A DNA stretch of 64,000 nt from Emiliania huxleyi CCMP1516 (lineage: Eukaryota), in assembly GCF_000372725.1 (NCBI RefSeq), contig NW_005202176.1, positions 380,188 through 444,187 on the forward strand, written 5' to 3'. Below, in pieces: positions 10,051-59,600 of the stretch; the first letter of the stretch is position 1; each line of letters starts with the position of its first letter. The translations under genes and the position numbers were made by a program. Below the pieces are notes generated by a model, which was given only the letters and a program-made list of their open reading frames with translations, searched no databases and was not told the origin of the DNA.

Positions 10051-10059
10051 CAGCCCCGC

Positions 10060-13701: not shown

Positions 13702-14061
13702 GACTTGGGGCGGATTTCGCGGCGCCAGAGAAGAATTCTTGCGGAACAAGCCTCTCTCACAGCACACTGGCACGACAAGGGCGCGGACTGGCGCGGACTG
13801 GCACACACACAGGCTCACCACCGGAGCCGCCTAAGCCAGAGAAGAATCTTACTGTCGGAGAAGAATTTCGCGTGTCCGAGGAATCCCTGGGACCCTGTCG
13901 TGTGGGTGAACCCTGCCCAGCCCCCCTCCGTGTCGCGATGCGCTCCCCGCTCCCGTTCCCCTGTGTCCCTGATCGTCCTTACAAGATCCTGCTCGTGCAG
14001 GTGGGGACCCTGTCCTTCTCCCACCCCTCGTTTGGCGTGCCCGTTTTATTTATTTATTTAT

Positions 14062-25711: not shown

Positions 25712-27167
25712 GCACGGACAGAGAGTGGAGGATTGTGCGGGGGTGCCCACCGCGGAGGTCAGTCTCTCGGTGCATTTTTACAAACCCACCCGCAAGTGTG
25801 TCGGTAGTCTGCCGCGGTGGAGAAGTCTCTTGATTTGTACTTATACTTGTCGTATATACGGAATCATCAATACGGCTCTTGCGCCTACCCCACTACGGGT
25901 AGCCCATTCACGCGCGCGCTCCGTTGCTAATACGAATAACCCCGCCGATTAGTGTCGTATATCAATTAGTCCGTGCGTCCCTTCGTTTCGTGTGTTTTGG
26001 GATCCTTCGTATTGTTCGAATCCTATGGAGCAAGACGACCTCGGAGACTGGCTCTCACCGCTCTCGCGCAACAGCGAAGCACCGCCCTCTCCATCTCCGC
26101 TCGCCGCCCCGCCTGGCACTCCCCACGCCGGAGTGGGAGCGGGTGCGGGTCTTGTGCAGCTCTCGCATTGTACGGTCCTGGCTACTGCCTTCCATTTTGG
26201 CTGCACCCCGCGTGAGCCGTGTGTGTGTGTGCCGACCGGGGACCCGGACCCCGCTCCCCGGACGGCGCGTCCGCGACCCGGACGGGCCGGTAGCTAGAGA
26301 ATGACCTCTCATACTGGAAACAGAGCCCCCCCCCACCCCCCCCCACCAAAAAACCCCCACTCACCGAGCGATTTCTTTTGGTTGTTCTTTTCTTTTATTT
26401 CGTCGCTGGCTGGTGGTGGCTTAGTTGTTTGCCACACACACGCACCCCTTTGGGCCACGCAATTTCTTTTCCTTGTTCTTTTCGGTTCTTGTTTTTAACG
26501 CTCCGTTTCTTAATCTCTATGTTCTTTTTTCGCACGACATTGTTGTAAAATTCTTTTTTCGAAGCCAGGAGAGAGCCACCGTCCAGCAACAAACCTGTCT
26601 GCACGTCTCGCGCGCGCGTGAACAGGGCTCCAGGCCCCAAATGACGTGTGAGTGTTAGATTTGTTTGGTATTGCTAAAAATCTCTCCCGTCCAGCCGATG
26701 ATATCAGCCGAAATGCGATGGCCGATGCCACCTCCCGTTCGGGTAACAAGCATGATGACACACCCGGGAGCTCGTGTCGCGTGCTCGGACGCCTGTCCGC
26801 ATGCACGCGACCGCGAATAATAAATAAATACAACGGGCATCCCAAGCTAGGGCTGGGTCGAGGACAGACACGTCCCCACCTTTGCAGGATTTTGCAAAAG
26901 CGAGGGGGGAGGGCGCATCGCCGCGCGGAGAGGGCTGGGCACAGGGCACAGGGGATCTCTCTCGCATAGGATATGCACTCGGCGACCGCGAGTGTGACGA
27001 CCGAGAGCTGCGCGAATTCTTTTTTCGCCTGTGTTCGTGCCAGTGCGCGCCAGTCCCGTGCCCAGTGTCGTGCGAGGGAGTTTTGTTGTAAGATTCTTTT
27101 TTCGAAGCCCGGCGGGAGCGGCCTAGAGGAGAGAGGCGCTCAGCACCCGCAACCCCGCCCCCTTTGC

Positions 27168-38600: not shown

Positions 38601-41600
38601 GGACGTCGAGCGCCATGTCGAGGACGGAATAGGCGCTCGGCACGGCGGCGGCGGCTCGCGCAAAGCTCCACACGGAGCGCTTCCCGATCTCTTCGAACCG
38701 GCCGGCCGGCGCAAGGAGCGCGAAGGAGGTGGAGATGAAGTCCGCGGACAGGCTGTTGAGCACGCCGTCCAGGCGCCGCCCGCCAAGCTGCGATGCGAGC
38801 GAATGCCCGCACGAGGCAGCTTGGCGAGAGCTCGCAGTCGAGCGTACGCCGCAGCACCGCAGGAGGTGGTGCTTGCGCGGGGCGCCCGCGGTGCCAAAGA
38901 GCCGGAGGCGAAGCCACGCGGCGTACTCCGAAGCCGCCAGGCCAACGCCGCCGGCCGTAGCGTGCACGAGCAGCCGCCGCGAGCCGACGAGCCGGGACCG
39001 GACGAACGCCACGTGCACAGTGCACCAGGTGCTGATCAGAGTGGTCGCGGCCTCAAAGCTCACCGCGCTCGGCTTGCGCACCTGCAATCGCGCGTCGCAG
39101 CACACATGCGATGCGAGGCAAGCATTGGAGATACCGAAGCAAGCGTCGCGCTGAGCAATGTGAGCGACCTGCGAGCCCGCGTGCTCCACCATGCCAGCGC
39201 AGTCGGAACCCGGGTCGGCTCGAGGCCCCGGATACTGATCCAAAACGATCAGGACATCCCGGAAGTTGAGGCCGACCGCATGCACGGCGATGCTGACCTC
39301 GGTGGGCGCCACCTCGTTGCCATCGCGGGACGAGTGGTCGCCCCGAGGCTCGAGCTTGAGGTTCGCGAATGAGCCGCGGGGCTCGCAAGTCAGGACGATC
39401 GACTGCAACGCCGCCGGCGATCTCCGCAAGGTCAGCCGGCGAACGTGCATCGAGCCGCCGCGGAGCGCCGCCTCGTTCTCGGCGGCGGGTCCCACTCGCA
39501 GGCCGTGGACGAACCCGTCCTCGGATGCCAGCGCGCGCGAGCGCACGAGCTCGGCCGCGCCACGCAGCGACTGCGCGCACCCGAAGTCGAGGTCCAGGTT
39601 GTACAGCGGCAGCCCGGCTGCCTCTTGCAGACACGCACGCGCAAAGCCCCACAGACCGGCGTGCTCGCTCGAGCTCCGCCGCACGGAGGCGACGGGCTGG
39701 GTCAGGTGCGTGCAGACCCACACCGGCACAGCGGCGGGCAGGTCCATCTGCCACTGCACGATGGTCAGCGCCGACGCGATGCTGCCCAGCGCGGCCGCAG
39801 CCCGGGGCGGCGCGACGAGGACGACGCCATCGAGAGCGCCGGCCTCGCGCAGCTCCGAGGCGGACCCGCTCTCCGCGCGCCGAGCGATGCTCCGCCCGAG
39901 CGCCGCGGCCAGCGTGCCGCGCCGGTCGCCCACGAGCAAGACGCGGGCCTCCTGGCTCGGATCGGCCGCGGCGGAGGCCACCGGAGCCCACTCGCACGCG
40001 TAGGACCAGTCGGCGGCCGGGGCAGCCTTGCCGGCGGCCGAGGCAGCCTTGCCGGCGGCGCCCTTCTTGAGCACACGGCTCTCGAAGTGGTCGAGCCTCG
40101 TCGCCTTCCCGAGGCCAGACAGGACGACGTCAGCCGTGGAGGCGCCTCGCCGGCTCAGCATCGCGACCATGTTGCCGTGCAAGCCGCTGAGCGCCGCCTC
40201 TGCCACCGAGAAGGGGAGTCGAGTCTCGCTCGAGCGCTCGCGCTCCATCAGAATCGAGGCCTGCAGCGCGCCGTCAAGGTCCGCGGGGTGGAGGAGAGTG
40301 CCCTCGAGGCACGCCTTGCGTCGGGGGCGCAGAGACGCGATCGCCGTGCCCGAGAGAGCCGACGCCCAGCCCTGAGCGAGCGTCTGGAAGGCGCGGCCGT
40401 ACTCGAGCCCAACGGCGCGGAAGTCGCCGTAGATCCGAGCTGCATCGGCGGCGTGCGGGCAGCACGCGCGCTGCGCTGGCGCGGCGAGCGACCGCGCGCC
40501 CGCCGCGCCTCCCGCCCCGCCACCCGAGGGTGACGCCGCGCAATGCACCATCCGCTCGGCGAGGGCGGCGCCCGCGCCGCTGCGAATCTCAAGACTGTCG
40601 AGCGCACCCGACACCTCGCACTCGATGTGCTGGTCGGCAGCCGGCTCCACCACGCAGGGCTGCATGAAGAGGACGCGGCGCAGATGGCACGCACGGCTGC
40701 CCGCGTAAAGCGTGCTCGCCTGGCATGCGGCCCGCGCCAGCTCGAGATAGCCGGCCGCGGGGAAGATGACGCGGCCTTGCACGACGTGGTCGGCCATGAG
40801 GGCAACTAGCCGGCCCCGGGCCGGCGAGCGGAAGAGGTGGGCCTCGCCGGCGCGGCCCGGCTGCTGCGCCAGCGGGTGCAGCTCGTCCTGCCACGAGAAG
40901 CGCTGCCTGCGGTAGACCAAGCCCGGAGCGGACGGCGGCCGCGCCGGCTCGCCCGCGCGGGCCGAGCACGAGAGGACGGCGTGGACGATGGTGCCGCTGT
41001 AGCCAAAGGAGGAGACGCCTCCCACTGCCACCAACCCGCGCTCCCGCTGCAACCGCTGCGTAGGCAGTATGGCGCTCGGTCCTGCACCCCCACCGAGATG
41101 CTCAGAGACGAGCTCGTTCATCACCCGGAGCTGCGCGTTGCCAGCGCAGTCAGCCGACAAGACGTGAAGGGCCTTGCAGATGCCGAACAGCCCAGACATT
41201 GGCTCCGCGTGGCCGACATTTGCCTTGAGCGCCCCAACAGCGACGTGCCCCGGAGCCGCGCGGAAGAGGTGCGACAAGGCGCCGCTCTCGATCGGGTCGC
41301 CGAGCGCCGTGCCTGTGCCGTGCGCCTCAATCGATGCGACAGCAGCCGCGGTGACCGACGCGCGAGACAGGGCAGCGTTCATCAGCACCCGCTGGGCGGA
41401 GCCGTTTGGCGCAGTCAGGCTCGCGCTGCGTCCATCCTGCCGCACCGCGCTGCCAAGCAGAAGCCGGGCGGGAGCTCCCTCGCAAATAGCGTCACGTGTG
41501 AGGACGATCGCGCCGACGCCCTCCGCCCGGACAAACCCGTTGGCACTCCTGTCGTAGGTCTTGCAGCGGGCGTCGGGAGAAAGCATTCCCGCAGCGGCAA

Positions 41601-44600
41601 CTCGTAGGGTCACAAGAGGCGACAGCTTCAGCGTCACAGACGCGACCAACGCCAGCGCGCACTCGGTATTGCGCATGGCGCTGGCGGCGCTGTGCTGCGC
41701 ACTGAGTGCCGAAGAGCAAGCAGTGTCGAGGCTCATGCAGGGCCCCATCAGCCCCAAGCAGAAGGAGATGCGCCCCGCGGCAACGGAGTTGGTGTCGGCA
41801 GTCACGGCATAGACAGAGGCTGCGGCTTGTGGCGACTGCATCCGGGTCCAATCTGGCCGCTCCATCCCAACGTATACGCCGGTGTCTGTGCCGAGCAGCG
41901 AGTCGCGTCGCAAGCCGTGGCCGTGGAAGGCCTGATAGCTGAGCTCAAGGAGCAGCCGCTGCTGCGGGTCCATGGCAGCGCCCTCAGTGGGCGAGATGGC
42001 GAAGAGGGCGCTGTCGAACAGCTCAGCTTTGCACACAAACCCACCGCTGCCTGCAGCCGCCGCCTGCACGTCGCTGATTGAGCCGATGTCCACGTGCTCG
42101 CTGAGCACCCATCGCACGCGGGGCACTGCGCGGATGCCGTCCCCGCTCGCTTCGAAGCTCGCCATTGCTTCACCGATCGCCTCGGCTCCTCCTGGCCAGC
42201 GCGCGACATCCCCACCTGAGATCGAGATGGCTTTCTCCGCCGCTGCAGGCGACGCACTGGCAGTGGCAATCGGCCGGTTTGCGCCCGAGCAGCGCAGCTC
42301 TTCTAGCAGATGCGATGCGAGGGCTCGGGGAGTCGGGTGGTCGAACACCATTGTTGGCGACACCGCGACGCCCGTTAGATCGCGCAGGCGCGAGGCGAGC
42401 TCCGTTGCGGCTAGCGAGTCGATGCCAGCCTCCATCAGCGGCGTGGCGGCGCCGATGGCTTCGACGTCGCTCAGCTTGCGCACCGTCTCCAAAACGGCCT
42501 CCTCCATTCTCGTCGCTCTGACCGCTGGCGTCAACGTCGCCAGCTCCTGGCTAAAGTTGCTTCCGCACGCATTCTCAGTGCCAGAGGCTGCAGAGCTAGA
42601 CACGGCGGCGCGCAGCTCCGACAGGAGAGGAACGTCTGCGCTGGGCACGCCCTCGAGCATGCGTGCGGTGGCCGTGGGCAGTGGCAATCGCACGGCCACG
42701 GCCGCATTGCTGAGCACCGACTGGAGTACGGCCTCGTACTCGACGAGAGAGATGGCAAGCATGCCTCGGAAGGACATCTGCCCTTTGGAGAAGGCAGCGG
42801 CTCCGATTCCGACGCCCTGCACGAGCGGGAACTGCACGCTGCTGGCGACGCACCCGCGGCTGCCCAAGTGGGCGGCCAACACGTCCAAGCACGAGTTGGC
42901 CGAGGCGTAGCTCGCTTGCCCGGCGCCGCCGAGCATGGCAGCGACAGACGAGTAGAGCAAGAATCCCCGCAACGGTGCCGTCGTCGTGCAGGCGTGAAGA
43001 AGCCTTGCGCTGTCGACTTTGGCCGCAAAGACGGCGTGCACGCGCGGCGCGAGGATGTCGGCGAGCAGACCCTTGTCGGCCACGCCTGCTGCATGCAGGA
43101 CATGGGCGGTCCCACCGGCCGTGGCTCCAAGCAGCGCCTTGACATCGGCCGGCTTGCTCGCGTCGCACGCCAGGACAGCCACATGCTTCGCCGAGTCTCG
43201 CAGAGATTGCAGCATGTCGTGCAGGCCTTGGCCGTCGCGCACCACAGCGCCGCTGCGAGAGGTGAGCAGAATCGACGAGGCAGAGCGAGCAAAGAGCAGC
43301 GCCGCCTTGAGCCCGAGACCACCAAGGCCGCCAGTCACAACGACGGAACTTCTCTGCCTGGACGGACCGGCCAAAGTCGAGGTTTTCGTCACGCCGCCCC
43401 CACGGCGGAGGCGGGCCACAAACCTCGAGGCACCGACGTAGGCTGCAGCGGAGTCGTGCGCCGCCGCGGAAAGCGCAGCTGTGAAGAATGAGCGTGCTGC
43501 CTCCTCCGCGGCCGGCGTGGCGCGGGGGAGATCGACGAGTCCGAGCCGCAGCTGGGGCCGCTCGAGCTGGAGGACTCTGCCGACGCCCCACGAGCCACAC
43601 CCTCCGAGGATGGAGCCGGGCTGGACGACGCGTGGCGCGGCGACAACCTCGCCGCTGGTGCAGACGATGATCTGGGGGGGCGGCTGCAGATTGACCAGGC
43701 GCTGGAGAAGAGTGATCAGAGGGGCGGCCGTGGTGTCGCCCTCCCCGCCGGGGCAGATGACCACGGCGGCCCACTGCCCGGCTGCGCTGGCCCCCGCCTC
43801 CAAGTCAGCCTTCTCCACCTGCAGCCTAGCCTGGACAAGCGCTCTCCCGACAAGCGAAATCCCCTGGTGGGGAGCGAGCAGAAGGCAGCGGCCAGAGACG
43901 GTAGCCGCCTGAAGCGCGCTGCGGGAGCGGACCCACGCAGCTTGGTAGCTTGAAAGCGAGGCCTCGGTGCTGGTAGGCGACGAGGAGCGCCACTTGAACG
44001 ACTTGTGGCGGTAGCTGTAACGGCGTGTGAACGAGGTGGACGGGGCCACCGTCAGCGCTGATGCAGCAGCGACGACATGCACAATGGTGCCGCTGTACCC
44101 AAACGAGCTCACGCCGCCGAGCCGAGTGGCGTTGCCGCCCTCCCACGTCGTCGCGAGCTGCGTCTGGTGCAAGACGCGGACGCTCTCGATCGCGGAAGCC
44201 ACGTGCGGGTTGAGCACGCGGAGCTGTGCGTTGGGCGACGCCTGATCGGTCACCAGCTTCAGCCCGAGGCGAAGAAGCCCCGCGGCACCGGCAGCAGGCT
44301 CGGCATGGCCCGCGTTGGCCTTGATGCTGCCCACTGCCGTGATGGAACCGTGCCCTGCAAGCAAGGTCGCGGCGAGCGAGCCCACCTCGATCGGGTCGCC
44401 GAGCGACGTGCCAGTGCCGTGCGCCTCGACGCAGCTCAGATCATCGCAGGTCGATCCGGCATCGACGAGCGCTGCCTCAAGGAGCGCCTGCTGCGCCTTG
44501 CCGTTTGGCGCGGTGAGGCTCGCGCTCTTGCCGTCTGATCGCACGCAGCTACCCGCCAAGGAGAGGTGGCCCATCCCCGTGCGCAAGGTGAGGGCACAGC

Positions 44601-47600
44601 ACGCCTCAGCACGAGCATAGCCGTCAGCGCGGGCGTCAAAAGTGTGGCAGCGCCCCCGCGCCGACGTCATGCCAGCCGTCGCAAAGCTATAGCTAACTCG
44701 GGGCAAAAGAAGCAGGCTGATGCCAGCGACCAAGTTGTCGACGCTTTCGGCATGCCGTGTCGCACGCACCGCCGCATGGCATGCGGTGAGAGTAGAGGAG
44801 CAGGCAGTGTCATACGACGCGCACGGACCCTGGAGGCCCAAAATGTAGGACAGCCGTCCAGATGCGATCGAGTGGCTGCTACCCGTGGCGGAGTAGACGC
44901 TGCCCCCTGCGGGAGATTTCGAGAGAATCTCGGCGAAGTCGTTGGCGGCGATGCCAATGAAAATCCCGGTGACGCTCCCTAGCAGGCTGGACTTGGGAAG
45001 TCCAGCACCGTGTAGCGACTCGTAGCCCCGCTCGAGCAAGATGCGCTGCTGCGGATCCATCGAAGCCGCCTCCACCGCGGAGATGCCAAAGTGGCCGTTA
45101 TCGAACAGGTCGGCCGCTCGGACAAACGCTCCGTGGCAAACGCGCTGAGCAACTGCAGCGGAAACGTTGCTGGCCTCTAGCGTCCACCGGTCTGCAGGCA
45201 CCTCCGACACCACGTTGCCGCCCGTCGCGGCGACGGCTCGAGCCGCCTCGAGAGTGGTGACGCCCTCCGGAAGGGTGGCAGAGAGGCCGGCGGCGCAAAC
45301 CGCCTCGGCAGCGCGGGCGGAGGCATGCGAGGGCGTGGCGGCGGCGGCTGCCACCGGCGGCGCGCCCTTGTCGCTGAAGAAGGAAGCCAGCTGACGCGCA
45401 GTCGGGTGGTCAAACACCAGAGTGCTCGGCAGTGGCACCGCGTCGCCAGCCGCCCGCTGGAGCTGGTTGCGCAGCTCGACCGCGCCGAGCGAGTCGAGCC
45501 CCGCCTCCATGAGAGGCACGTCCGCGTCGACGCGTGCGCTCATTGTGCCCTGCAAGATCTCGAGCACCCCGTCGAGGCTCAGAAGGGCGGACGAACCCGC
45601 CGTCGCGGCCGGCTGGGTCGCGCTGGCACTCGCCGGAACGCCCGGCGCCGGCGCTGCGCGGGCGCGCTTCGGCGCCGCTCGGCCGCGCCGGTTCTTCCAC
45701 GGCAGGAGCAGGCCGGGCACGGCGCCGGCAGGTGCGCGGCCGAGCAGCAGCGGCCACTCGGCCGGCCACACCGCCACGACGCGGTCGCACCGCGCCAGCG
45801 AGGCGTGAAGGGCGTCCCACGCCATCGCACGCGTGACGGCGCCCATGCCGCTCTTCGTCGCCCGCTCGTCCGCCCCGTGGCGCGCAGCGTAGCCGATCTC
45901 GGCGACGGCGCCCCACTGCGTGCCGAGCCCGCCCAGGCCCGCGTCGCGCCGGCAGTGCACCAGCGAGTCGAGCCACGTGTTGGCCGCAGAGTGCGGCGTC
46001 GCGGCGGCGTTGCCGATGAGCCCCGCCACCGACGAGTAGGCGTGGAAGTGCTGCAGCGCGCCGGCGAGGCTGGCCGCGTGCAGCCAGCCCGCGCCGTGCA
46101 CCTTGGGCGCGAAGACCGTGGCGAAGTGGCCCATCGCCTGGTTGCGCACCGTCGCATCCGCAAGCAAGCCCGCGGCGTGGTAGACCCCGCACAGCGGCAT
46201 GCAGCTCTGCTGCACGGCGCCGGCAAGCGCCCGCACAGCGGTGGCGTCAGACACGTCGCAACGGGCGGGCGACACGGCAACGCGGCTGGTGAGCCACGCC
46301 CAGTCCGCCTCGCTGCCGCTCTGCACGCGCCCGCTGCGAGACGAAAGCACCAGGTGCTTCGCGCCACGCCCCACGAGCATGCGTGCCGTCAGCAAGCCGA
46401 GCCCGCCGAGCCCACCCGAGAAGAGGTGGGTGCCGCGATCGAGCTCCGCGCGCCGTGCGCCAGGCGACCGCTCGCCCACCTGGGAGACGATGATCGCCTG
46501 CGCCTCTAGGACGTAGCCGTCGCCGCGCATGCAGTGGGAGCTGGCAAAGCCGCTCGCCGCCAGGATCTGACGCCAGTGCTCCCACGACAGCAGCGGGCTC
46601 GGCTGGTTGGTGCGCTCCGGGTCGCTCGCAAACATCCACCACCCGTCGGTCAGGCCAAACGTGGTCTGCAAAAATCCATTCGTTCGAAGCAGCTCATTCA
46701 GAAGAAGGAAGCCCCCGTCGCAGAGCAGGCGGCGGCAGTTTCGCAGCGTGTTGCGGATGAAGGGCGTCGCGTGCAGCACGTTGGTGGCGATGGCGAGGTC
46801 GAACGATCCCGAGGCGAAGCCCTGGAGGCGCGAGTCGGCGTCGATGTTGAGCAGCTCAAAGCGCATGAAGCCGGCGTACTCGGCAAAGCGCCGCTGCGCC
46901 TGGTTGAGGAAGACCTCCGACACGTCGGTGAACATGTACTGCTCGCACACCCGACGCAGCCGCGGCAGCACGCTCGATGCCGTGCCGCCCGTGCCGGCGC
47001 CAACCTCGACGACGCTCAAGAAGCGGCCGGCTGGCAGGCTGGCAATGATGGAGTCGACCGCGGCCACCACGCACTCGTTGTAGAAGCGAGCGTTGACGGC
47101 GTCCTCGTACACGGGCAGCGTCAGCTCCATGGACCCTCCCGGGAAGAGGAGCTCCTGGTAGGCGACGGTGCCGAGGAGGGCGGCGGCGAGCTGGGAGGCA
47201 CATCGTTGAGTCACGCCAACCTCAGGCCAGAGCCGCGGCGACACTGCGAGCACGTCTTCGTACGATGCGGGCTCTGTGGGCGGCTCGATGGCGGCGCACC
47301 ACTCATATAGCAGCCGGTGGTGCCACTTGGGGATGGCAGAAGGGTCCAAACCGCTCAGGGCGCGGGCGATGTCGTGCCTCACAGCCCTCTCAAGCACCTC
47401 GTGGGCGTCCGTCACCTGCGGCAAGTCCTCGAGCGCGCGCACCGCGTCCGACACGTGGGCATCAAGCAGCTCGCAGAGCGGCGCAAACGCCACCGCCAAC
47501 GAGCTTGGCGCACCCAACCGGACAGGTATCGTGATCACCACCTTGCCGAGGTTTGCGCCGCCCGAGAGGAACCGGAACGCGTCTCGTGCCTCGCGCTCGA

Positions 47601-50600
47601 TGCCGAAGCTGCGGAGCGGGAGGCCGTGGACCACAACCGCCTCGAGCCGCCGCGCGAGGACCTGCAGCACCTCTGCAGAGTACCAGTCAGGGTCGGCGGG
47701 GACGTCGAGCGCCATGTCGAGGACGGAATAGGCGCTCGGCACGGCGGCGGCGGCTCGCGCAACGCTCCACACGGAGCGCTTCCCGATCTCTTCGAACCGG
47801 CCGGCCGGCGCAAGGAGCGCGAAGGAGGTGGAGATGAAGTCCGCGGACAGGCTGTTGAGCACGCCGTCCAGGCGCCGCCCGCCAAGCTGCGATGCGAGCG
47901 AATGCCCGCACGAGGCAGCTTGGCGAGAGCTCGCAGTCGAGCGCACGCCGCAGCACCGCAGGAGGTGGTGCTTGCGCGGGGCGCCCGCGGTGCCAAAGAG
48001 CCGGAGGCGAAGCCACGCGGCGTACTCCGAAGCCGCCAGGCCAACGCCGCCGGCCGTAGCGTGCACGAGCAGCCGCCGCGAGCCGACGAGCCGGGACCGG
48101 ACGAACGCCACGTGCACAGTGCACCAGGTGCTGATCAGAGTGGTCGCGGCCTCAAAGCTCACCGCGCTCGGCTTGCGCACCTGCAATCGCGCGTCGCAGC
48201 ACACATGCGATGCGAGGCAATTCTTCGCCTGACCGAAGCAAGCGTCGCGCTGAGCAATGTGAGCGACCTGCGAGCCCGCGTGCTCCACCATGCCAGCGCA
48301 GTCGGAACCAAGCGTGCCAAGGTACTCCGACGGAAGTTCACCCAACGCATCCAGGACATCCCGGAAGTTGAGGCCGACCGCATGCACGGCGATGCTGACC
48401 TCGGTGGGCGCCACCTCGTTGCCATCGCGGGACGAGTGGTCGCCCCGAGGCTCGAGCTTGAGGTTCGCGAATGAGCCGCGGGGCTCGCAAGTCAGGACGA
48501 TCGACTGCAACGCCGCCGGCGATCTCCGCAAGGTCAGCCGGCGAACGTGCATCGAGCCGCCGCGGAGCGCGGCCTCGTTCTCGGCGGCGGGTCCCACTCG
48601 CAAGCCGTGGACGAACCCGTCCTCGGATGCCAGCGCGCGCGAGCGCACGAGCTCGGCCGCGCCACGCAGCGACTGCGCGCACCCGAAGTCGAGGTCCAGG
48701 TTGTACAGCGGCAGCCCGGCTGCCTCTTGCAGACACGCACGCGCAAAGCCCCACAGACCGGCGTGCTCGCTCGAGCTCCGCCGCACGGAGGCGACGGGCT
48801 GGGTCAGGTGCGTGCAGACCCACACCGGCACAGCGGCGGGCAGGTCCATCTGCCACTGCACGATGGTCAGCGCCGACGCGATGCTGCCCAGCGCGGCCGC
48901 AGCCCGGGGCGGCGCGACGAGGACGACGCCATCGAGAGCGCCGGCCTCGCGCAGCTCCGAGGCGGACCCGCTCTCCGCGCGCCGAGCGATGCTCCGCCCG
49001 AGCGCCGCGGCCAGCGTGCCGCGCCGGTCGCCCACGAGCAAGACGCGGGCCTCCTGGCTCGGATCGGCCGCGGCGGAGGCCACCGGAGCCCACTCGCACG
49101 CGTAGGACCAGTCGGCGGCCGGGGCAGCCTTGCCGGCGGCCGAGGCAGCCTTGCCGGCGGCGCCCTTCTTGAGCACACGGCTCTCGAAGTGGTCGAGCCT
49201 CGTCGCCTTCCCGAGGCCAGACAGGACGACGTCAGCCGTGGAGGCGCCTCGCCGGCTCAGCATCGCGACCATGTTGCCGTGCAAGCCGCTGAGCGCCGCC
49301 TCTGCCACCGAGAAGGGGAGTCGAGTCTCGCTCGAGCGCTCGCGCTCCATCAGAATCGAGGCCTGCAGCGCGCCGTCAAGGTCCGCGGGGTGGAGGAGAG
49401 TGCCCTCGAGGCACGCCTTGCGTCGGGGGCGCAGAGACGCGATCGCCGTGCCCGAGAGAGCCGACGCCCAGCCCTGAGCGAGCGTCTGGAAGGCGCGGCC
49501 GTACTCGAGCCCAACGGCGCGGAAGTCGCCGTAGATCCGAGCTGCATCGGCGGCGTGCGGGCAGCACGCGCGCTGCGCTGGCGCGGCGAGCGACCGCGCG
49601 CCCGCCGCGCCTCCCGCCCCGCCACCCGAGGGTGACGCCGCGCAATGCACCATCCGCTCGGCGAGGGCGGCGCCCGCGCCGCTGCGAATCTCAAGACTGT
49701 CGAGCGCACCCGACACCTCGCACTCGATGTGCTGGTCGGCAGCCGGCTCCACCACGCAGGGCTGCATGAAGAGGACGCGGCGCAGATGGCACGCACGGCT
49801 GCCCGCGTAAAGCGTGCTCGCCTGGCATGCGGCCCGCGCCAGCTCGAGGTAGCCGGCCGCGGGGAAGATGACGCGGCCTTGCACGACGTGGTCGGCCATG
49901 AGGGCAACTAGCCGGCCCCGGGCCGGCGAGCGGAAGAGGTGGGCCTCGCCGGCGCGGCCCGGCTGCTGCGCCAGCGGGTGCAGCTCGTCCTGCCACGAGA
50001 AGCGCTGCCTGCGGTAGACCAAGCCCGGAGCGGACGGCGGCCGCGCCGGCTCGCCCGCGCGGGCCGAGCACGAGAGGACGGCGTGGACAATGGTGCCGCT
50101 GTAGCCAAAGGAGGAGACTGCACCGTACATAAGACCCGACTGCCCGTGACCCACGTTGCTTGGTGCCGTGGGTAGTCCGCAAGGCACGATGGAGAGCACA
50201 TCGTGGACGTGGGGGTTCACTCTCCGGAGCTGCGCGTTCGGCGACGTCGCGGAGCCTTGCAATGCAAGCACCAACGCCTGAAACCCGCTGAATCCAGCGC
50301 CAGGCTCGGCGTGGCCCGCGTTGGCCTTGAGGCTCCCGACAGTCGTCTGTGCCGCGCCCTCCTTGGCGGCAGGAACAAAGACGCTCGTCGATAGACTCCG
50401 CATCTCGATCGGGTCGCCCAGCGCGGTTCCCGTCCCGTGTGCCTCCTCCACTTGCACGTCCGCAGCGCGCACCCCCGCCCGCGCTATCGCCGCGCTGATC
50501 AGACGGCACTGCGCCTGACCGTTCGGGGCGGTGAGGCTAGCACTCCGTCCATCGCAGCGGACAGTCACGCCAGCGACCGCGCATCGGCTCCTCTGGCCCT

Positions 50601-53600
50601 CGTCTTGCGGCTCGAAGACCGCCGCGCCGCAAGAGTCAGCGCGCACGTAGCCATCCGCCCTCTCGTCGAAGGTGTGGCACTTGCCTCGAGGCGATGTCAT
50701 GCCCGCGATCGCGAACGCCTGGTGGACGTCGGTCACGAGCATCACGTTGACCGCCAGGACCACCGCCTCGCGGCACTCGCCGAGCTGCAGAGTGCCGCAC
50801 GCCAGATTGGTGGCCGTCAGCCCTGCGGAGCAGGCGGTGTCGACTTGCGTGCAAGGTCCCTGCATGCCAAGCGCGAAGGAGAGCCTCCCAGCTGCTACGG
50901 ACTGGCTGCTGCCGGTGGCAGCGTAGACGGAGCGCCACGCGTCCGACTGGAGGAGCACCCTCGAGAAGTCTTGGCACGAGAGCGCCAGGAAGACTCCGGT
51001 CTCCCGGCCCAGGAGCGAGGCGCGCAGAAGCCCTGCGGCGTGCAAAGCCGCGTAGCCGTGCTCGAGGCACAGGCGCTGCTGTGGGTCCATGGCAAACGCC
51101 TCGCTCTTCGAGACAGAGAAGGCGGATGCGTCGAAGAGGTCAGCCTGGCGGAGGAAAGCTCCGTACCTCATCCGGCTGCACACCACATCGTCCAGTCCGC
51201 CAGCGACCGCGTCGGCGACAGCGCTTCCCACGTCCCACCGTTCCAGCGGGACCTCGGCAGCGACGTCTCCGCAAGAAGCAAGGACCAGTGAAAATGTGTG
51301 CTGCGTAGCAACGCCCGCCGGTAGGCGAACGCTGCTCCCGACCAGCGTCTGTGATGACGAGGTCATCACTGGCGGCGCGAGGCCCAACTCAGAGCCCGGG
51401 TTCTCCTCCGGCGCCTGCACCAGCGCAGAGATGGCGCGGACGGTCGGCGCGTCGAAAATGAAAGTCGACGGCAGCTCCAACCCATCGCCGGCTGCGCGCT
51501 GCAGCTGGTTGCGCAGCTCGACGGCGCCGAGTGAGTCCAAGCCCGCTTCCATGAGAGGCTTGTCCGGGTCGAGCTCAGCCCCCGCGACTCCCTGCGCAAT
51601 TCGCAGTACTTGCTCCATCGGAAGCTGGTTGGTCAAGGTCGAGCTTGCACCACGAGCGGTGGCGGCGGGCTTGAACCTGTCAAGCAGCAGTGGGACGGCG
51701 GGTAGAGACTCCAAGAACCGATCCCAATCGGTGAGAAACAGCGCAAACACGGCCGGCTCGCGAGCGCTGAGCGCCGCGACCAGACCGGCCGCCCCCTCCT
51801 GCAAGCTGATCTGCCGTAGGCCAGACGCCTGTAAGCGTGCACTCACCGCGCTGCCCGCCGCCATACCCACGTCCGCCCACGGGCCCCACTGCACGCTCGA
51901 CGCCGCCAGCCCGTCGCCGCGCCGCCGAGCCGACAGCGCGTCGAGGCAGCAGTTGGCCGCGCTGTAGTTCGACTGGCCCGCGCCAAACAGGGCAGCCATC
52001 GACGAGAAGAGCACGAACGAGTCGAGCGGCGCAGCGGCGCACGCGCTCTGCAGGCACCACGCGCCGCCCGCCTTGGGCGCGTACACGCGGCGCAGCGACG
52101 CCGCCGTCTGCGAGCGCAGCAGCCCGTCCGACAGCACGCCCGCCGCGTGCCACACGCCGCGCCAATCCCGCACGCCCACGAGACGGCGCACGTCGGCAGG
52201 CTCCGACGCGTCGCAGCGAGCCGCGAGCAAGGCACACGAGGCCACCGACCCCGCCGATGTGTCCGCCTGCGCCGCGCCCACTCGCCCGCTGCGCGAGGAG
52301 AGCACCACCGCCGACGCGCCTCGGCCGACCAGCCAGCCCGCGGTCACAAAAGCCAGGCCCCCGCTCCCGCCCGTCACGATGTGCGACCCGTGCGCGCTCT
52401 GCTCGAGGAAGGCCACGCGGAGCACCACCTTCCCGGAGTTTGAGCCGCTCTGCAGGTACCGGAACGCCGCGACCGCCTCGCTCTCCAGGTCGAAGAGCTC
52501 CAGCGGCAGCCCGTGCAACACGAGCCGCCGGGCCCGCGCCGCCAGCTGGCGCAGCGCATGTTGGGTCCACTCCGGAGCGTGCTCCATCGTCGCGTCGAGC
52601 GCAAGCACCTCGTAGCGCAGATGCGCCGCCGACGACCACGCCCGCGCCGACGACCACACGCCGCGCTTGCCGATCTCGGCGAAGGTGCCGCCCTCGCGAG
52701 CCAGCGCCACCGAACAGGCGATGAAGTCGCCGGAGAGGCTGTTGAGCACGCAATCCAACCGCCGCGAGCGCAAGGCCGCCAAGCCCGAAGCGTACGCGCC
52801 GCCGTCGCGCGAGCTGCCCATCCCCCCCTCCAGGCCCAGTGCGCGCAGAACGCGGTGCTTGCGTGGCCGCCCCGCGGTCGTGCCAGTCGCTAGCCGAAGC
52901 CAGTGGCTGTACTCCACAGCCGCAAAGCCAACTCCGCCCGCGCCCGCATGCACGAGCAGCCGGTGCCGGGCCAGCGGACGCGAGCCGCAAAACGCGGCAT
53001 GCACCGTGCTCCACACCGTCGGCAGAGTGCACGCCGAGGCGGGCGACAGCTCCGCCGGCCGCGCCGCCAGCAGCCGCACGTCAGCGCGGGCGAGCGAGGC
53101 AAGCGCCGCCACCGCGTGGCCAAGCACACACCCGCCAACCGCCAGCTCCGCCCCCGCCGCCGCGCCGAGAGCCGCCACGCGCGCCGCACAATCCGAGCCG
53201 GGCGCACCCGGGTCGCCGGGGTACGCACCCAGCACGTTGAGCACGTCGCGAAAGTTGAGGCCGACGCACCACACCCGCAACGAAGCCTCGCCGTCCGCCG
53301 CTACGCCGCTCCCGACCGGCTGCGGCACCACGCGCAAACTCGTCAGCGAGCCCCGCGCGTCAAAGCGAAGCGCGATGGGGCACGAAAGCGAGCACGCCGC
53401 AGCGACGAGCCGAGGCGCGAGAGCGACGTCGCCCACGAGGCGCAGCTCCGGCTCGGCCAAGCCCTGGAGGGCCAGCGCCGCCGCCGCCGGCTCCACGAGG
53501 GACACCGCCGCCGCGCCAGAGAGCGCAAGACAACCGAGCGGCGCCGATGGCGCCTCGCTCCGCGCCGACCGCGCGAGTCCCAGCAAGCCGGGCTGGTGCT

Positions 53601-56600
53601 CGTGGCTGTCCCGCGAGCGAGCGCCGCAAGCCCGCACCAGCCACAGAGGCACTTGGAGAGAGCCACCCGCCAGCTGTGAGCGCACCACGCCCAGCGCCGC
53701 CTCAAGCGCCCCGACCGGCTCGGCTGCCGCGCTCGTGCCCGCGATGCCACTGGGCGCCAACACCAAAGAGTCCGTCTGCCGCCCGCCGGTGACCTCGGCC
53801 GCCGGCCAGCGCCGCAGCCGCGGCCGGCACCTCCCGAGCACCAGCGCGCCACCGTCAGCGCCGCCAGCAGAGATAGGGAGAGCCGCCCCACCGGCCGGCC
53901 GCCACGCCGTAGTGTACAAATGCCGCTCGCGATCCGACGCAGCCGACTCCGCAATCGCGCGGCTCTCAAAGCCGCTCAGCCGCACCGCTGGCGCGCTGCC
54001 ACACGCCGCGCCCGCGAGCCAGACGCTGACCAAGCTCCCGCTCTCCCGAGCAGCGACCGACCAGAGCCGCCCCGAGGCCTGTTGCAGAGCGGCTGCGCCC
54101 ACGGCGAACGGCAGCCGAGTGCAGCCGGGGCGGGTCTCGGAGACCAGCTGCGTGAGCTGCAACGCGCCGTCCAGGTCGGCCGGGTGCAGCTGCGTGCCAG
54201 ACAGCCTGGAGCGCTTGTGCAGCCGTGCCGTCGCTGCGCCGGCCGTGGACAAGCGCGCCGCAGCGAGCGTGCGGTACTCCGGGCCGTACTCAAGCCGCAT
54301 CGAGCGCGAGTGGGCGTAAAGCCGGCCGACACCCGCCGCGCATGTGCAAGCGCTGGCGACGGACGGCAGGTCGAGCGGCGCGCTCGGCGACGCGAGCGGA
54401 CACGACGCGCCGGCGCAGTGCGCCGTGTGATCTGTCGGCTCCTCGCCGACGCCGCTGATCTCGAACCGGCCTGCGGCCGTGTCGACCTCACAGCTCACGC
54501 GCGCCGCCGAGCCGTCGAGCACGAGCGGCTTCAGAAAGAAGACGCGCCGCAGCGCAGCGCCTGCTGACGGCACGCTGCCGTGGGCGGCTGCGCTGGCCGC
54601 CCGCGCCATCTCCAGATATGCCGCCGCGGGAAAGACGACCTGGCCGTCGACGATGTGGTCGGAGACCAACGCCGCCAGCCGACCGACCGCCGGGCTCCAC
54701 GCAGTCGTCAAGCTGCCGGCGCTCGACACGTGGGCGCGCAGCGGGTGGCAGCCCGCCCACGGCTCGAAGCGACGGCGCTGCATCACAAGCGGCACGGCGC
54801 CCGACCGAAGCCGAGGACCCGACGTCCGCCGCTCGGCGTCGACCACACACGACGCGATCGTCCCGCTGTAGCCGAAGGAGCTCACCGCCCCTGTCGCCGC
54901 CGCGCCACCGCCCACCTGGAGGAAAGGCGAGTGCTGCGACGGGAGCGACGCGGTCGGCGCGCCCTCAAAGACCGCCGCAATGTGCGGGTTGACCGTGCGT
55001 AGCTGCGCGTTCGGCGACGCGACGCCGCCGCCAAGACCGACGGCCAGCCGCAGCAGCCCGGAGCCGCCCGCCGCCGGCTCGCCGTGGCCGGCGTTGGCCT
55101 TGACGCTCCCGGTGGGCAACGCGCACTCGTCGCCGAGGTACGTCAGCACCGCCGCGGCGAGCGAGCGCATCTCGATCGGGTCGCCCAGCGCCGTGCCCGT
55201 GCCGTGCGCCTCCCACATCGACAGGTCCTCGCACGGCAGGGCCGCGTCCACCAGAGTCGCGTCGAGCAGCGCGTGCTGGGCTCGCCCGTTCGGCGCGGTC
55301 AGGCTCGCGCTCTTCCCGTCCTGCCGCACGCAGCCGCCTCGCACCGCGAGCGTGCACGCCTCCACGCCCGTCGTGCGCAGCGTGAGCGCGCAGCACGCCT
55401 CGCCGCGCGCGTAGCCGTCGGCCCGAGCGTCGAAGGTGTGGCACCGGCCGCGCGCTGACAGCATGCCAGCCACAGCGAAGCTCGTGCCCAAGTTCGGCAG
55501 CAGCATCAAGCTGACGCCCGCTACGAGGCTGCCGATGCTCTCGCGCAGCTGCGTCGCCCGCAAGCCGGCGTGGCACGCCACCAGCGCGGCGGAGCACGCC
55601 GTGTCGTACGAGACGCACGGGCCCTGCAGGCCGAGCACGTAGGAAAGCCGGCCTGAAGCGATCGAGTGCGCGCTCCCCGTCGCGGCGTACACGCTCCCGC
55701 CCGCCGGCGACGCGTTCATCAGCAAATTGAAGTCCACGCTCGCGATCGCCACAAAGACGCCGAACGCCGTGTCCGCCAGGGCCGCCCGCTCGAGGCCTGC
55801 GCCACGCAGCGACTCGTAGCCCCGCTCGAGCAGCAACCGCTGCTGCGGGTCCATCGACTGCGCCTCGGCGCTCGACACGCCGAAACGCGCGTGGTCAAAC
55901 AGCTCCGCGCCGTGGACAAACGCGCCGTGCCGCACGCGCCTCGCCACCTCGCCGTCGGAGGGGCTCGGCGCCTCAAGCGTCCAACGCTCGACGGGCACCT
56001 CCGACACGAGGTTGGCGGCGCACGCCCCAACGCGGCTCAGCGACGCCGCAGATGCGACACCCGACGGCAGCACCATCTGCAGCCCGCCCGCGCGCACCGA
56101 GTCGCGTGAGAAGCGAGAGGCCTCCACGCTACCGCCGACCGCCGACCGACGAGACGCCGCCGCCGCCGTCGCCTCGCCGCCGAGAGCAGCCGAGGCAAAG
56201 AAGGCAGCGAGCTGGCGCGCCGTCGGGTGGTCGAAAACCAGTGTGCTTGGCAGAGAGAGCGAGTCGCCCGCCGCGGCATGCAGCTGGTTGCGCAGCTCGA
56301 CGGCGCCGAGCGAGTCGACGCCCGCGTCCATCAGCGGCACGTCCGCGTCGAGCCCGCCTCCCGCGATTTGGCGAGCGATCTCCAGGACAAGGTCGAGGTC
56401 AACCGTGCTCTTGCCTGCAGACCCGCCGGCAGCGACGGCGGCCTTCGGCGCGGCGGAGCCACCCGAGGCCGCCAGCGACGACAGCAGCGGTGGCGTCGTG
56501 CCCATCGTCCGCACAAGCCGACGCCAGTCGACCACCAACAAGGCCAAGACTGGAGGCGCCTGCGGCACCGCGGCAGCCGCCAGTGCCGCCCGGCCCTGAG

Positions 56601-59600
56601 CGGCCGTGATCAAGCCGACCCCCGTCGCCTGCAGCCGACCGCCCACCGCGCCGCCCGCCGCCATACCCACGTCCGCCCACGGGCCCCACTGCACGCTCGA
56701 CGCCGCCAGCCCGTCGCCGCGCCGCCGAGCCGACAGCGCGTCGAGGCAGCAGTTGGCCGCGCTGTAGTTCGACTGGCCCGCGCCAAACAGGGCAGCCATC
56801 GACGAGAAGAGCACGAACGAGTCGAGCGGCGCAGCGGCGCACGCGCTCTGCAGGCACCACGCGCCGCCCGCCTTGGGCGCGTACACGCGGCGCAGCGACG
56901 CTGCCGTCTGCGAGCGCAGCAGCCCGTCCGACAGCACGCCCGCCGCGTGCCACACGCCGCGCCACTCCCGCACGCCCACGAGACGGCGCACGTCGGCGGG
57001 CTCCGACGCGTCGCAGCGAGCCGCGAGCAAGGCACACGAGGCCACCGACCCCGCCGATGTGTCCGCCTGCGCCGCGCCCACTCGCCCGCTGCGCGAGGAG
57101 AGCACCACCGCCGACGCGCCTCGGCCGACCAGCCAGCCCGCGGTCACAAAAGCCAGGCCCCCGCTCCCGCCCGTCACGATGTGCGACCCGTGCGCGCTCT
57201 GCTCGAGGAAGGCCACGCGGAGCACCACCTTCCCGGAGTTTGAGCCGCTCTGCAGGTACCGGAACGCCGCGACCGCCTCGCTCTCCAGGTCGAAGAGCTC
57301 CAGCGGCAGCCCGTGCAACACGAGCCGCCGGGCCCGCGCCGCCAGCTGGCGCAGCGCATGTTGGGTCCACTCCGGAGCGTGCTCCATCGTCGCGTCGAGC
57401 GCAAGCACCTCGTAGCGCAGATGCGCCGCCGACGACCACGCCCGCGCCGACGACCACACGCCGCGCTTGCCGATCTCGGCGAAGGTGCCGCCCTCGCGAG
57501 CCAGCGCCACCGAACAGGCGATGAAGTCGCCGGAGAGGCTGTTGAGCACGCAGTCCAACCGCCGCGAGCGCAAGGCCGCCAAGCCCGAAGCGTACGCGCC
57601 GCCGTCGCGCGAGCTGCCCATCCCCCCCTCCAGGCCCAATGCGCGCAGAACGCGGTGCTTGCGTGGCCGCCCCGCGGTCGTGCCAGTCGCTAGCCGAAGC
57701 CAGTGGCTGTACTCCACAGCCGCAAGGCCAACTCCGCCCGCGCCCGCATGCACGAGCAGCCGGTGCCGGGCCAGCGGACGCGAGCCGCAAAACGCGGCAT
57801 GCACCGTGCTCCACACCGTCGGCAGAGTGCACGCCGAGGCGGGCGACAGCTCCGCCGGCCGCGCCGCCAGCAGCCGCACGTCAGCGCGGGCGAGCGAGGC
57901 AAGCGCCGCCACCGCGTGGCCAAGCACACACCCGCCAACCGCCAGCTCCGCCCCCGCCGCCGCGCCGAGAGCCGCCACGCGCGCCGCACAATCCGAGCCG
58001 GGCGCACCCGGGTCGCCGGGGTACGCACCCAGCACGTTGAGCACGTCGCGAAAGTTGAGGCCGACGCACCACACCCGCAACGAAGCCTCGTCGTCCGCGG
58101 CAACGCTTTTGTTGAGCGGCTGCGGCACCACGCGCAAACTCGTCAGCGAGCCCCGCGCGTCAAAGCGAAGCGCGATGGGGCACGAAAGCGAGCACGCCGC
58201 AGCGACGAGCCGAGGCGCGAGAGCGACGTCGCCCACGAGGCGCAGCTCCGGCTCGGCCAAGCCCTGGAGGGCCAGCGCCGCCGCCGCCGGCTCCACGAGG
58301 GACACCGCCGCCGCGCCAGAGAGCGCAAGACAACCGAGCGGCGCCGATGGCGCCTCGCTCCGCGCCGACCGCGCGAGTCCCAGCAAGCCGGGCTGGTGCT
58401 CGTGGCTGTCCCGCGAGCGAGCGCCGCAAGCCCGCACCAGCCACAGAGGCACTTGGAGAGAGCCACCCGCCAGCTGTGAGCGCACCACGCCCAGCGCCGC
58501 CTCAAGCGCCCCGACCGGCTCGGCTGCCGCGCTCGTGCCCGCGATGCCACTGGGCGCCAACACCAAAGAGTCCGTCTGCCGCCCGCCGGTGACCTCGGCC
58601 GCCGGCGAGCGCCGCAGCCGCGGCCGGCACCTCCCGAGCACCAGCGCGCCACCGTCAGCGCCGCCAGCAGAGATAGGGAGAGCCGCCCCGCCGGCCGGCC
58701 GCCACGCCGTAGTGTACAAATGCCGCTCGCGATCCGACGCAGCCGACTCCGCAATCGCGCGGCTCTCAAAGCCGCTCAGCCGCACCGCTGGCGCGCTGCC
58801 ACACGCCGCGCCCGCGAGCCAGACGCTGACCAAGCTCCCGCTCTCCCGAGCAGCGACCGACCAGAGCCGCCCCGACGCCTGTTGCAGAGCGGCTGCGCCC
58901 ACGGCGAACGGCAGCCGAGTGCAGCCGGGGCGGGTCTCGGAGACCAGCTGCGTGAGCTGCAACGCGCCGTCCAGGTCGGCCGGGTGCAGCTGCGTGCCAG
59001 ACAGCCTGGAGCGCTTGTGCAGCCGTGCCGTCGCTGCGCCGGCCGTGGACAAGCGCGCCGCAGCGAGCGTGCGGTACTCCGGGCCGTACTCAAGCCGCAT
59101 CGAGCGCGAGTGGGCGTAAAGCCGGCCGACACCCGCCGCGCATGTGCAAGCGCTGGCGACGGACGGCAGGTCGAGCGGCGCGCTCGGCGAAGCGAGCGGA
59201 CACGACGCGCCGGCGCAGTGCGCCGTGTGATCTGTCGGCTCCTCGCCGACGCCGCTGATCTCGAACCGGCCTGCGGCCGTGTCGACCTCACAGCTCACGC
59301 GCGCCGCCGAGCCGTCGAGCACGAGCGGCTTCAGAAAGAAGACGCGCCGCAGCGCAGCGCCTGCTGACGGCACGCTGCCGTGGGCGGCTGCGCTGGCCGC
59401 CCGCGCCATCTCCAGATATGCCGCCGCGGGAAAGACGACCTGGCCGTCGACGATGTGGTCGGAGACCAACGCCGCCAGCCGACCGACCGCCGGGCTCCAC
59501 GCAATCGTCAAGCTGCCGGCGCTCGACACGTGGGCGCGCAGCGGGTGGCAGCCCGCCCACGGCTCGAAGCGACGGCGCTGCATCACAAGCGGCACGGCGC

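What the first reader, a model, noticed from the sequence alone, without database searches (positions are those of the whole stretch)
48215..48360. Near-identical modules differ at the ER stereocontrol position
Seen: across ~4.9 kb of near-identity between modules n-3 and n-1, the ER differences cluster in two short patches. These are RDVLDALGELPSEYLGTLGSD versus RDVLIVLDQYPGPRADPGSD (with a 3-nt indel) and GQAKNC versus GISNAC. Known: the Tyr in the ER NFRDVLxxLGxYPG motif correlates with (2S)-methyl and non-Tyr residues with (2R). Inference: the duplicated modules set opposite methyl configurations, which implies selection on active ERs while the flanks are homogenised.
Basis: partly seen in the sequence, partly recalled or inferred. 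Interest (0 to 1): 0.72.

Follow-up and report, generated by a model that had tools for sequence, protein, structure and literature searches.

The report
Stereo-switch islands in algal polyketide factory
In a giant polyketide-building enzyme of the bloom-forming alga Emiliania huxleyi, two copies of a working unit are 99.7% identical except for five tiny patches at or beside their catalytic pockets; selection likely kept these patches while the rest was overwritten by gene copying, and one patch is predicted, but not shown, to give two methyl branches opposite handedness.

Summary
The window holds most of E. huxleyi EhuPKS6, a catalogued trans-AT PKS of unknown product. Modules 4 (n-3) and 6 (n-1) differ at 72 of about 4,900 nt; 59 fall in five patches totalling 135 nt. 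Patch 1 holds position 52' (aligns to QOR Tyr52): Leu plus one extra residue in module 4, Tyr in module 6. Both loop versions occur in other species' ERs whose bodies are only 57-69% identical, while the two bodies here are identical. This supports gene conversion with selection-kept islands. The reference strain carries the module-4 form in the same phase, so assembly error is unlikely. Opposite methyl configuration is the best single reading (about 0.5) but is not implied: the 2R signature is Val/Ala/Phe, a fungal ER with Leu52' gives 2S, and the rule is uncalibrated in haptophytes. Pocket tuning for different substrates is the main rival. The pair is a natural minimal test of ER stereocontrol.

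The parts
29668..63999 (-). Single ORF of at least 11,443 aa, 5'-open: most of trans-AT modular PKS EhuPKS6. (KS-)DH-ER-KR-ACP x3, KS-DH-ER-MT-KR-ACP, KS-KR-ACP, KS-DH-ER-MT-KR-ACP, KS-ER-MT-KR-ACP-TE
   Evidence: identical architecture listed for EhuPKS6 (JGI 632068) in PMC4661987 supplement file 2 row 24; 97-99.7% identity to CCMP1516 proteins
45370..51327 (-). Module 4 (n-3): KS-DH-psiKR-ER(Leu52')-cMT-KR-ACP (approximate bounds)
47515..48501 (-). Module-4 ER domain; NFRD, HATAGGVG and EIGK motifs intact; predicted MDR/PKS-ER fold
   Evidence: pLDDT 94.2; TM 0.89 to CurK ER
48310..48351 (-). ER patch 1 in module 4: position-52' loop, Leu at 52' (codon 48334-48336), one residue longer than the Tyr form
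   Evidence: 10 of 14 residues and the extra residue shared with the orthologous module in L001
48220..48231 (-). ER patch 2 in module 4 (QAKN vs ISNA), turn after strand 87-91 of the model; not conserved in L001 (1 of 4)
47089..47100 (-). MT patch A (AVNA vs AVHS), 3-6 residues after the Tyr equivalent to CurJ Tyr169
46648..46701 (-). MT patch B, spanning the conserved Glu of the His/Glu pair and the following segment
   Evidence: module-6 form 17 of 18 identical to L001 with 10 synonymous codon changes
46501..46515 (-). MT patch C (YVLEA vs LLLET), before the last MT strand; pocket role not established
44080..45183 (-). KS of module 5, which receives the module-4 product: N-terminal half diverged from, C-terminal half nearly identical in DNA to, the KS of module 7
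36271..42216 (-). Module 6 (n-1): KS-DH-psiKR-ER(Tyr52')-cMT-KR-ACP (approximate bounds)
39211..39249 (-). ER patch 1 in module 6: Leu46', Ile47', Tyr52' (codon 39232-39234), Pro53', the full published 2S signature
   Evidence: 11 of 13 residues shared with P0322
39121..39132 (-). ER patch 2 in module 6 (ISNA)
29668..36198 (-). Module 7 (n): KS-psiKR-ER(Tyr52')-cMT-KR-ACP-TE with no DH; its psiKR-ER stretch is codon-identical to module 6 for about 540 codons; MT patches A and B are of the module-4 type, patch C of the module-6 type

Best explanation
Modules 4 and 6 of the E. huxleyi polyketide synthase EhuPKS6 are near-identical copies that differ mainly in five short patches; gene conversion likely homogenised the copies, selection likely kept the patches, and the enoylreductase loop (Leu52' plus one residue versus Tyr52') is predicted to make the two modules set opposite methyl configurations. 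In each module the cMT would methylate C2, KR and DH would give a 2-methyl-enoyl thioester, and the ER would add hydride at C3 and a proton at C2. The Tyr loop of module 6 would give the 2S-type intermediate by the published rule; the Leu loop of module 4 would let the other face be protonated. By collinearity the product is predicted to be a long-chain 3,7-dihydroxy-2,4,8-trimethyl acid, with C4 set by the module-6 ER and C8 by the module-4 ER. Shown: patches, their position, their occurrence in other species, intact motifs. Inferred: conversion and selection (about 0.85), active module-4 ER (about 0.85). Predicted only: opposite stereochemistry, product.
For: Clustering: 59 of 72 differences in 135 of 4,908 nt. 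Position: QOR Tyr52 column; Asn+11, as for vFAS Asn1573/Leu1584. Patch versus body: module 4 vs 6 body 100%, patch 2 of 13; module-4 patch vs L001 10 of 14 with the same extra residue (body 69%); module-6 patch vs P0322 11 of 13 (body 57%). L001 is the positional orthologue (KS 67.8% to module-4 KS vs 43.8% to module-6 KS), and 169 of 284 fourfold sites differ from the window, so both loops predate the homogenisation. Three-way mosaic with module 7, synonymous codons included. Module 6 matches the full 2S signature L46' I47' Y52' P53'. Leu52' with a one-residue longer loop occurs in 5 of 18 ERs from ER-MT modules or stand-alone KS-ER modules and 0 of 38 plain ER-KR modules; Tyr and Leu forms occur in both of those ER groups, as a two-state switch would give. 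Three Leu-type ERs sit in stand-alone KS-ER modules whose only processing domain is the ER; one (P0121) follows a DH-MT-KR module. The KSs after modules 4 and 6 group with KSs that follow fully reducing modules (FastTree support 0.95-0.98).
Against: Leu is not among the 2R residues (Val, occasionally Ala or Phe), and module 4 keeps Leu46' and Pro53' of the 2S signature. SQTKS ER has Leu52' and gives 2S in the intact synthase, and V52'Y did not switch RapER13. The rule comes from actinobacterial and mycobacterial PKSs; I found no haptophyte calibration (PKZILLA supplement unreadable). The module-4 patch is no more identical to L001 than the body is (10 of 14 vs 69%, binomial p 0.55); the module-6 match to P0322 is p 0.037. 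Patch 2 is not conserved in L001 (1 of 4), and the MT patches of the L001 orthologue of module 4 are the window's module-6 type, so islands are not all fixed to a module. An island of 7 changed codons in module 2 (58090-58116) lies in a variable N-terminal ER segment with no known role, so some islands may be neutral remnants. A Tyr four residues downstream in the Leu loop might replace Tyr52'; no coordinates were available to check. No product is known.
Confidence: 0.5

Rival explanations
1. The islands are kept by selection, but they tune the acyl pockets to different substrates (a plain alkyl tail in module 4; a tail with hydroxyl and methyl in module 6), and both ERs give the same configuration.
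For: By residue count from the conserved Asn, SQTKS pocket residues I1938, F1941 (+16, +19) fall in patch 1 and L1969 (+47) in patch 2 (counted, not aligned). F1941A changed substrate acceptance. The cMTs, whose stereocentre is erased by DH, show the same island pattern, as do the substrate halves of the downstream KSs. SQTKS Leu52' gives 2S.
Against: The same Leu+1 versus Tyr split recurs in a separate clade of stand-alone ERs. L001 keeps the Leu loop although its upstream module lacks an ER and so delivers a different chain.
Confidence: 0.3
2. The module-4 ER is switched off or bypassed by its loop, so the chain keeps a methyl-substituted C8=C9 alkene; selection keeps the 'off' loop.
For: PMC7327777 cites an inactive natural ER (fostriecin ER1) with a changed 52' residue and an intact NADPH site. 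An ER-less psiKR-MT joint exists in 3 of 4 runs, so ER-less methylating modules are in the population.
Against: All ER motifs are intact. Leu+1 loops occur in stand-alone KS-ER modules, which would be pointless if inactive. The downstream KS groups with KSs receiving saturated chains.
Confidence: 0.1
3. The patches are neutral leftovers of old divergence that conversion tracts have not yet covered, or artefacts of assembling repeats.
For: One island in module 2 has no evident function. Short-read contigs mix patch types (X8: Tyr loop with QAKN). The module-4 patch is not significantly more conserved than the ER body.
Against: P0439 from the reference assembly has the same phase. Four of the five islands fall at or beside named catalytic or pocket positions. 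MT patch B is 17 of 18 identical to L001 despite 10 synonymous changes.
Confidence: 0.1

Closest known systems
EhuPKS6 of Emiliania (Gephyrocapsa) huxleyi (JGI 632068; Shelest et al. 2015, PMC4661987, passages and supplement file 2 seen)
   Same: Same seven-module domain string, including the terminal KS-ER-MT-KR-ACP-TE; fragments P0439 and P0179 from CCMP1516 match modules 4 and 6/7.
   Different: The table gives architecture only. In the passages read there is no mention of the patches, stereochemistry or a product; 'gene conversion' has 0 occurrences in the main text. Sequence identity to model 632068 itself was not tested.
ER position-52' stereocontrol rule (Kwan and Leadlay; seen through reviews PMC6264292 and PMC7327777, passages)
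   Same: Same column; module 6 has the complete 2S signature; close mycobacterial ERs differing at 52' give opposite methyl configurations.
   Different: Module 4 has Leu plus one inserted residue, not Val/Ala/Phe. The whole loop differs, not one residue. Methyl comes from a cMT in a eukaryotic trans-AT line, and both forms sit in one polypeptide on an identical body.
Gene conversion between PKS modules: mycolactone PKS (PMC2569948, passages) and GRINS (PMC8256042, passages)
   Same: Paralogous modules more alike than orthologues; mosaic identity; 98-100% identical stretches.
   Different: There the exchanged units are whole domains or 0.3-1.4 kb tracts. Here the retained units are 12-54 nt inside domains. 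No GRINS-type skew.
SQTKS and vertebrate FAS ERs (PMC5369529, passages and section 8; PMC9053739, passages)
   Same: Leu at position 52'; SQTKS reduces cMT-made 2-methyl-enoyl chains.
   Different: Iterative enzymes. SQTKS gives 2S with Leu and loses C2 selectivity when excised, which limits both the rule and isolated-domain assays.
Islands of divergence under gene conversion (PMC3728101, start of abstract in a search listing only)
   Same: Divergent islands persisting through conversion are read as regions under selection.
   Different: Here the islands map to catalytic pockets of tandem modules within one gene.

Membership tests
Haptophyte trans-AT modular PKS (EhuPKS6) | Multimodular KS-...-ACP organisation without AT domains | tested here: met
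   No AT family hit in 8 segments covering the ORF
Haptophyte trans-AT modular PKS (EhuPKS6) | Domain string equal to the catalogued EhuPKS6 | tested here: met
   the loading domains and first KS lie outside the window
Haptophyte trans-AT modular PKS (EhuPKS6) | Sequence identity to gene model 632068 | not tested
   The model's sequence was not returned by any search; only CCMP1516 fragments P0439 and P0179 were compared
Active PKS enoylreductase (MDR fold) | MDR fold; NFRD, GGVG NADPH motif and Lys of E(I/L)GK intact | tested here: met
Active PKS enoylreductase (MDR fold) | NADPH-dependent enoyl reduction | not testable with these tools
   needs an assay
2S-type ER (module 6) | Leu46', Ile47', Tyr52', Pro53' | tested here: met
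   4 of 4
2R-type ER (module 4) | No Tyr at 52' | tested here: met
   Leu5222
2R-type ER (module 4) | Val46', Val47', Val52' (or Ala/Phe at 52') | tested here: not met
   Leu46', Asp47', Leu52', Pro53'; not filed as a canonical 2R ER
2R-type ER (module 4) | 2R product | not testable with these tools
   no product or assay
PKS C-methyltransferase | SAM motif and CurJ-equivalent Tyr169, Asn277, His and Glu | tested here: met
   All three MTs; the His280/Glu306 numbers are recalled, the Tyr169/Asn277 numbers are from PMC7327777
GRINS | Duplicated region of more than 80% identity within the cluster | tested here: met
GRINS | Intense, correlated GC and TA skews | tested here: not met
   mean |GC skew| 0.07, correlation about 0 in modules 4 and 6
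Concerted evolution with selected islands | Paralogue bodies closer than orthologues while islands group with other species | tested here: met
   ER patch 1 and MT patches A and B; one comparator per allele, and P0322 has no module context
Concerted evolution with selected islands | Islands fixed by module across population haplotypes | tested here: inconclusive
   Short-read contigs collapse the repeats; one phased reference fragment agrees

The most novel reading that the evidence does not exclude
Haptophyte PKSs use a two-state ER loop cassette (Tyr52' versus Leu52' plus one residue) as a portable stereo-switch. Gene conversion overwrites whole modules yet spares, and sometimes shuffles, 12-54 nt pocket cassettes in ER and cMT, so a module's chemistry is programmed by a few codons on an interchangeable chassis. 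Swapping 14 residues would invert a methyl centre in either direction, which point mutation of bacterial ERs has not achieved cleanly.
Probability: 0.35. Interest if true: 0.78.

Novelty: new variant of a known kind. Interest (0 to 1): 0.56.

Why it matters
How an ER picks the face of C2 protonation is unsettled: the Tyr rule works one way only and fails for Leu-bearing fungal ERs. These two ERs differ at 17 aligned positions on an otherwise identical body, 16 of them in two patches, so a loop swap tests the question directly without the usual domain-compatibility problem. The same pair gives near-isogenic cMT pockets. It also yields a concrete stereochemical prediction for an unknown methyl-branched lipid of a globally abundant bloom alga, and shows that conversion islands can be used to find the specificity residues of eukaryotic PKS domains from sequence alone.

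Tried and rejected
No whole genome is held for the window, so upstream domains and other PKS genes could not be searched for a donor. A mis-phased assembly was considered, because L001 pairs the Leu ER with the module-6-type MT; rejected because P0439 has the window's phase through MT patch A (patches B and C are beyond its end). GRINS rejected. Lower GC3 in the patches (57 of 89 vs 552 of 634, Fisher p 5e-7) fits GC-biased conversion of the flanks but was not used as support, since the unduplicated TE region has GC3 0.91. The His in place of the KR catalytic Tyr raised the possibility of dead KRs; it recurs in most MT-module KRs listed, including DH-MT-KR modules, so it was read as a family trait (activity untested). 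An alkenone synthase reading was rejected: two internal MT modules would branch the chain, and PMC13508280 (abstract and section 6 read; supplement searched) proposes PKS7. Run depths were not used as copy numbers. The AlphaFold model gave no coordinates, so pocket contacts rest on alignment and residue counts. PMC5224524 and PMC6470028 (cMT structures) were not held; the PKZILLA supplement could not be read and may hold ER sequences that calibrate the rule. The search for related loci gave 3 loci from 210 candidate stretches. Literature searches for this gene's product or patches found nothing (listings only). The search of earlier findings returned nothing.

Full report
Setting. The finding lies in one minus-strand ORF of at least 11,443 aa (29668-63999, open at the 5' end). 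Pfam and motif scans give seven AT-less modules: three DH-ER-KR, then KS-DH-ER-MT-KR-ACP (n-3), KS-KR-ACP (n-2), KS-DH-ER-MT-KR-ACP (n-1) and KS-ER-MT-KR-ACP-TE (n). This string equals the one listed for EhuPKS6 of Emiliania huxleyi in PMC4661987 supplement file 2, which adds an AMP-ligase/ACP loading part. Two CCMP1516 proteins match: P0439 differs from module n-3 at 3 of 1,074 aligned residues, and P0179 from n-1 at 2 of 231, both at its frayed end. So n-3, n-1 and n are modules 4, 6 and 7. I found no product or patch analysis in print (searches; listings only).

Observation. Modules 4 and 6 differ at 72 columns in 4,908 nt. Fifty-nine lie in five patches totalling 135 nt, and identity elsewhere is 99.73%. 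The densest 60 nt hold 25 differences, against at most 9 in 20,000 random placements. With module 7 the pattern is a mosaic: 7 equals 6 at both ER patches and MT patch C, and nearly equals 4 at MT patches A and B, synonymous codons included. The KSs of modules 5 and 7 are also mosaic, with a near-identical C-terminal half and a diverged N-terminal half.

Is it real? P0439 carries the module-4 KS end, the Leu loop, QAKN and MT patch A in the window's phase; it may derive from a related strain or allele, so it is an independent assembly rather than an independent population sample. Of 20 runs listed, 16 hold half or more of the stretch's words; I laid 4. Their collapsed ER contig has the Leu loop in 3 and the Tyr loop in 1, and QAKN in all 4. 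One of the four is on record as RNA-seq. Short-read contigs cannot phase the repeats.

Where the patches sit. Tyr8256 of module 6 aligns without gaps to Tyr52 of E. coli quinone oxidoreductase, the reference position of the rule (PMC6264292, passages), and to the Tyr of SpnB ER2. Leu5222 of module 4 is the same column, in a loop one residue longer. The module-4 ER keeps its NFRD, GGVG and EIGK motifs and is modelled at pLDDT 94 with TM 0.89 to CurK ER. By residue count only, SQTKS pocket residues I1938 and F1941 fall in patch 1 and L1969 in patch 2. In the MT, a constant offset of 24 on the CurJ alignment (counted by hand) places Tyr169 and Asn277, named in PMC7327777 section 6. Patch A starts three residues after that Tyr, and patch B spans the conserved Glu (numbered 306 from recall). 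The role of patch C is not established.

Age of the patches. L001, from another species, has a module whose KS is 67.8% identical to the module-4 KS and 43.8% to the module-6 KS, in collinear order; 169 of 284 fourfold sites differ from the window. Its ER has the Leu loop with the same extra residue (10 of 14 identical; body 69%). P0322, an ER fragment with a body only 57% identical, has the module-6 loop (11 of 13). The window's two bodies are 100% identical while their loops share 2 of 13. MT patches A and B of module 6 match L001 at 4 of 4 and 17 of 18 residues with 4 and 10 synonymous changes. The simplest reading is recent homogenisation of old paralogues with selected islands. Against: the Leu loop is no more identical to L001 than the body (p 0.55); patch 2 is not conserved (1 of 4); L001 has the module-6-type MT patches in its module-4 orthologue; and an island in module 2 (58090-58116) has no evident function.

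Census. Of 357 ER domains extracted from all hits, 72 were picked as haptophyte-like by one motif and 4 added by hand; 281 were left out, and 20 of the 76 have unknown context. All 38 ERs followed directly by KR have Tyr52' (37 with Asn47'), so Tyr alone is the default. Leu52' with a one-residue longer loop occurs in 2 of 10 ER-MT and 3 of 8 stand-alone KS-ER domains, and in 0 of 38 plain ones (hand-calculated p about 0.002, but the sequences are related and three of the ten are from this gene). An upstream MT module is shown for only two stand-alone cases (P0121, P0183). Stand-alone ERs with the Leu loop argue that this loop is compatible with activity.

Mechanism. I commit to the following. 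Each of modules 4 and 6 methylates C2, reduces and dehydrates, and its ER saturates the 2-methyl-enoyl thioester (inferred from intact motifs; the downstream KSs group with KSs that follow fully reducing modules). Module 6 has the full 2S signature L46' I47' Y52' P53'. Module 4, lacking the Tyr and with a rebuilt loop, is predicted to protonate the other face. The collinear product would be a long-chain 3,7-dihydroxy-2,4,8-trimethyl acid with C4 and C8 set by ERs of opposite type. Confidence is 0.5, because the 2R signature is V/V/V, module 4 keeps L46' and P53', and SQTKS ER has Leu and gives 2S (PMC5369529, passages and section 8). Pocket tuning with equal stereochemistry (0.3), an inactive module-4 ER (0.1) and neutral remnants (0.1) are the rivals.

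Module 7. It has no DH, so its Tyr-type ER, codon-identical to module 6, has no regular substrate and says nothing about selection. A contig joining psiKR to MT without an ER is present in 3 of 4 runs; which module or gene it belongs to is unknown. Cross-module ER action is known in azalomycin PKS (PMC9899208, passages), but nothing here supports it.

Comparison and novelty. The gene, the 52' rule and gene conversion between PKS modules (PMC8256042, PMC2569948, passages) are known. GRINS-type skews are absent. What I did not find described is codon-scale pocket islands kept across species in a eukaryotic PKS, and a recurring Leu+1 ER loop in haptophytes. Verdict: observation confirmed, interpretation partly supported, new variant of a known kind, interest 0.56.

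Noticed in passing
window 33234-34288 (equivalent to 47493-48550): A 116-nt contig joins psiKR directly to the MT, skipping the ER, in runs X7, X8 and X11; X6 shows a different joint. An ER-less methylating module exists in other strains, alleles or a paralogue; the DH-less module 7 is the obvious candidate.
   Followed up: partly
window about 46000-46030, 36900-36930, 31740-31770 (KR active sites of modules 4, 6, 7): The KR catalytic Tyr is His in all three MT modules, as in most haptophyte-like MT-module KRs listed. In P0200, a terminal MT-KR-ACP-TE from a related species, it is Ala, which would leave a 2-methyl-3-keto acid able to decarboxylate to an ethyl ketone.
   Followed up: partly
window 44080-45183 vs about 34960-36090: KS domains of modules 5 and 7 are mosaic: about 145 C-terminal codons with 3 nt differences, N-terminal half diverged in blocks.
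   Followed up: partly
window 58090-58116: Island of 7 changed codons in the ER N-terminal segment of module 2 relative to modules 1 and 3, which are 99.3% identical 4,800-nt repeats. No evident function.
   Followed up: partly
L001 about 4600-5600 (aa 1540-1870 of the long frame): The module before the Leu-ER module in the related species has a divergent DH-like region and no ER, so its product differs from that predicted here.
   Followed up: no
window 8896-29378: Ordinary neighbours by Pfam: TauD dioxygenase (8896-9855 -), DUF6817 (9822-11108 -), hydroxyproline O-arabinosyltransferase (12259-13821 -), replication protein A pieces (17619-19909 +), NHL-BTB protein (22443-24206 +, with a 76% identical paralogous stretch at 4109-5112), ankyrin protein (26973-29378 +). 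No trans-AT or tailoring cluster was seen among the 13 ORFs scanned.
   Followed up: no
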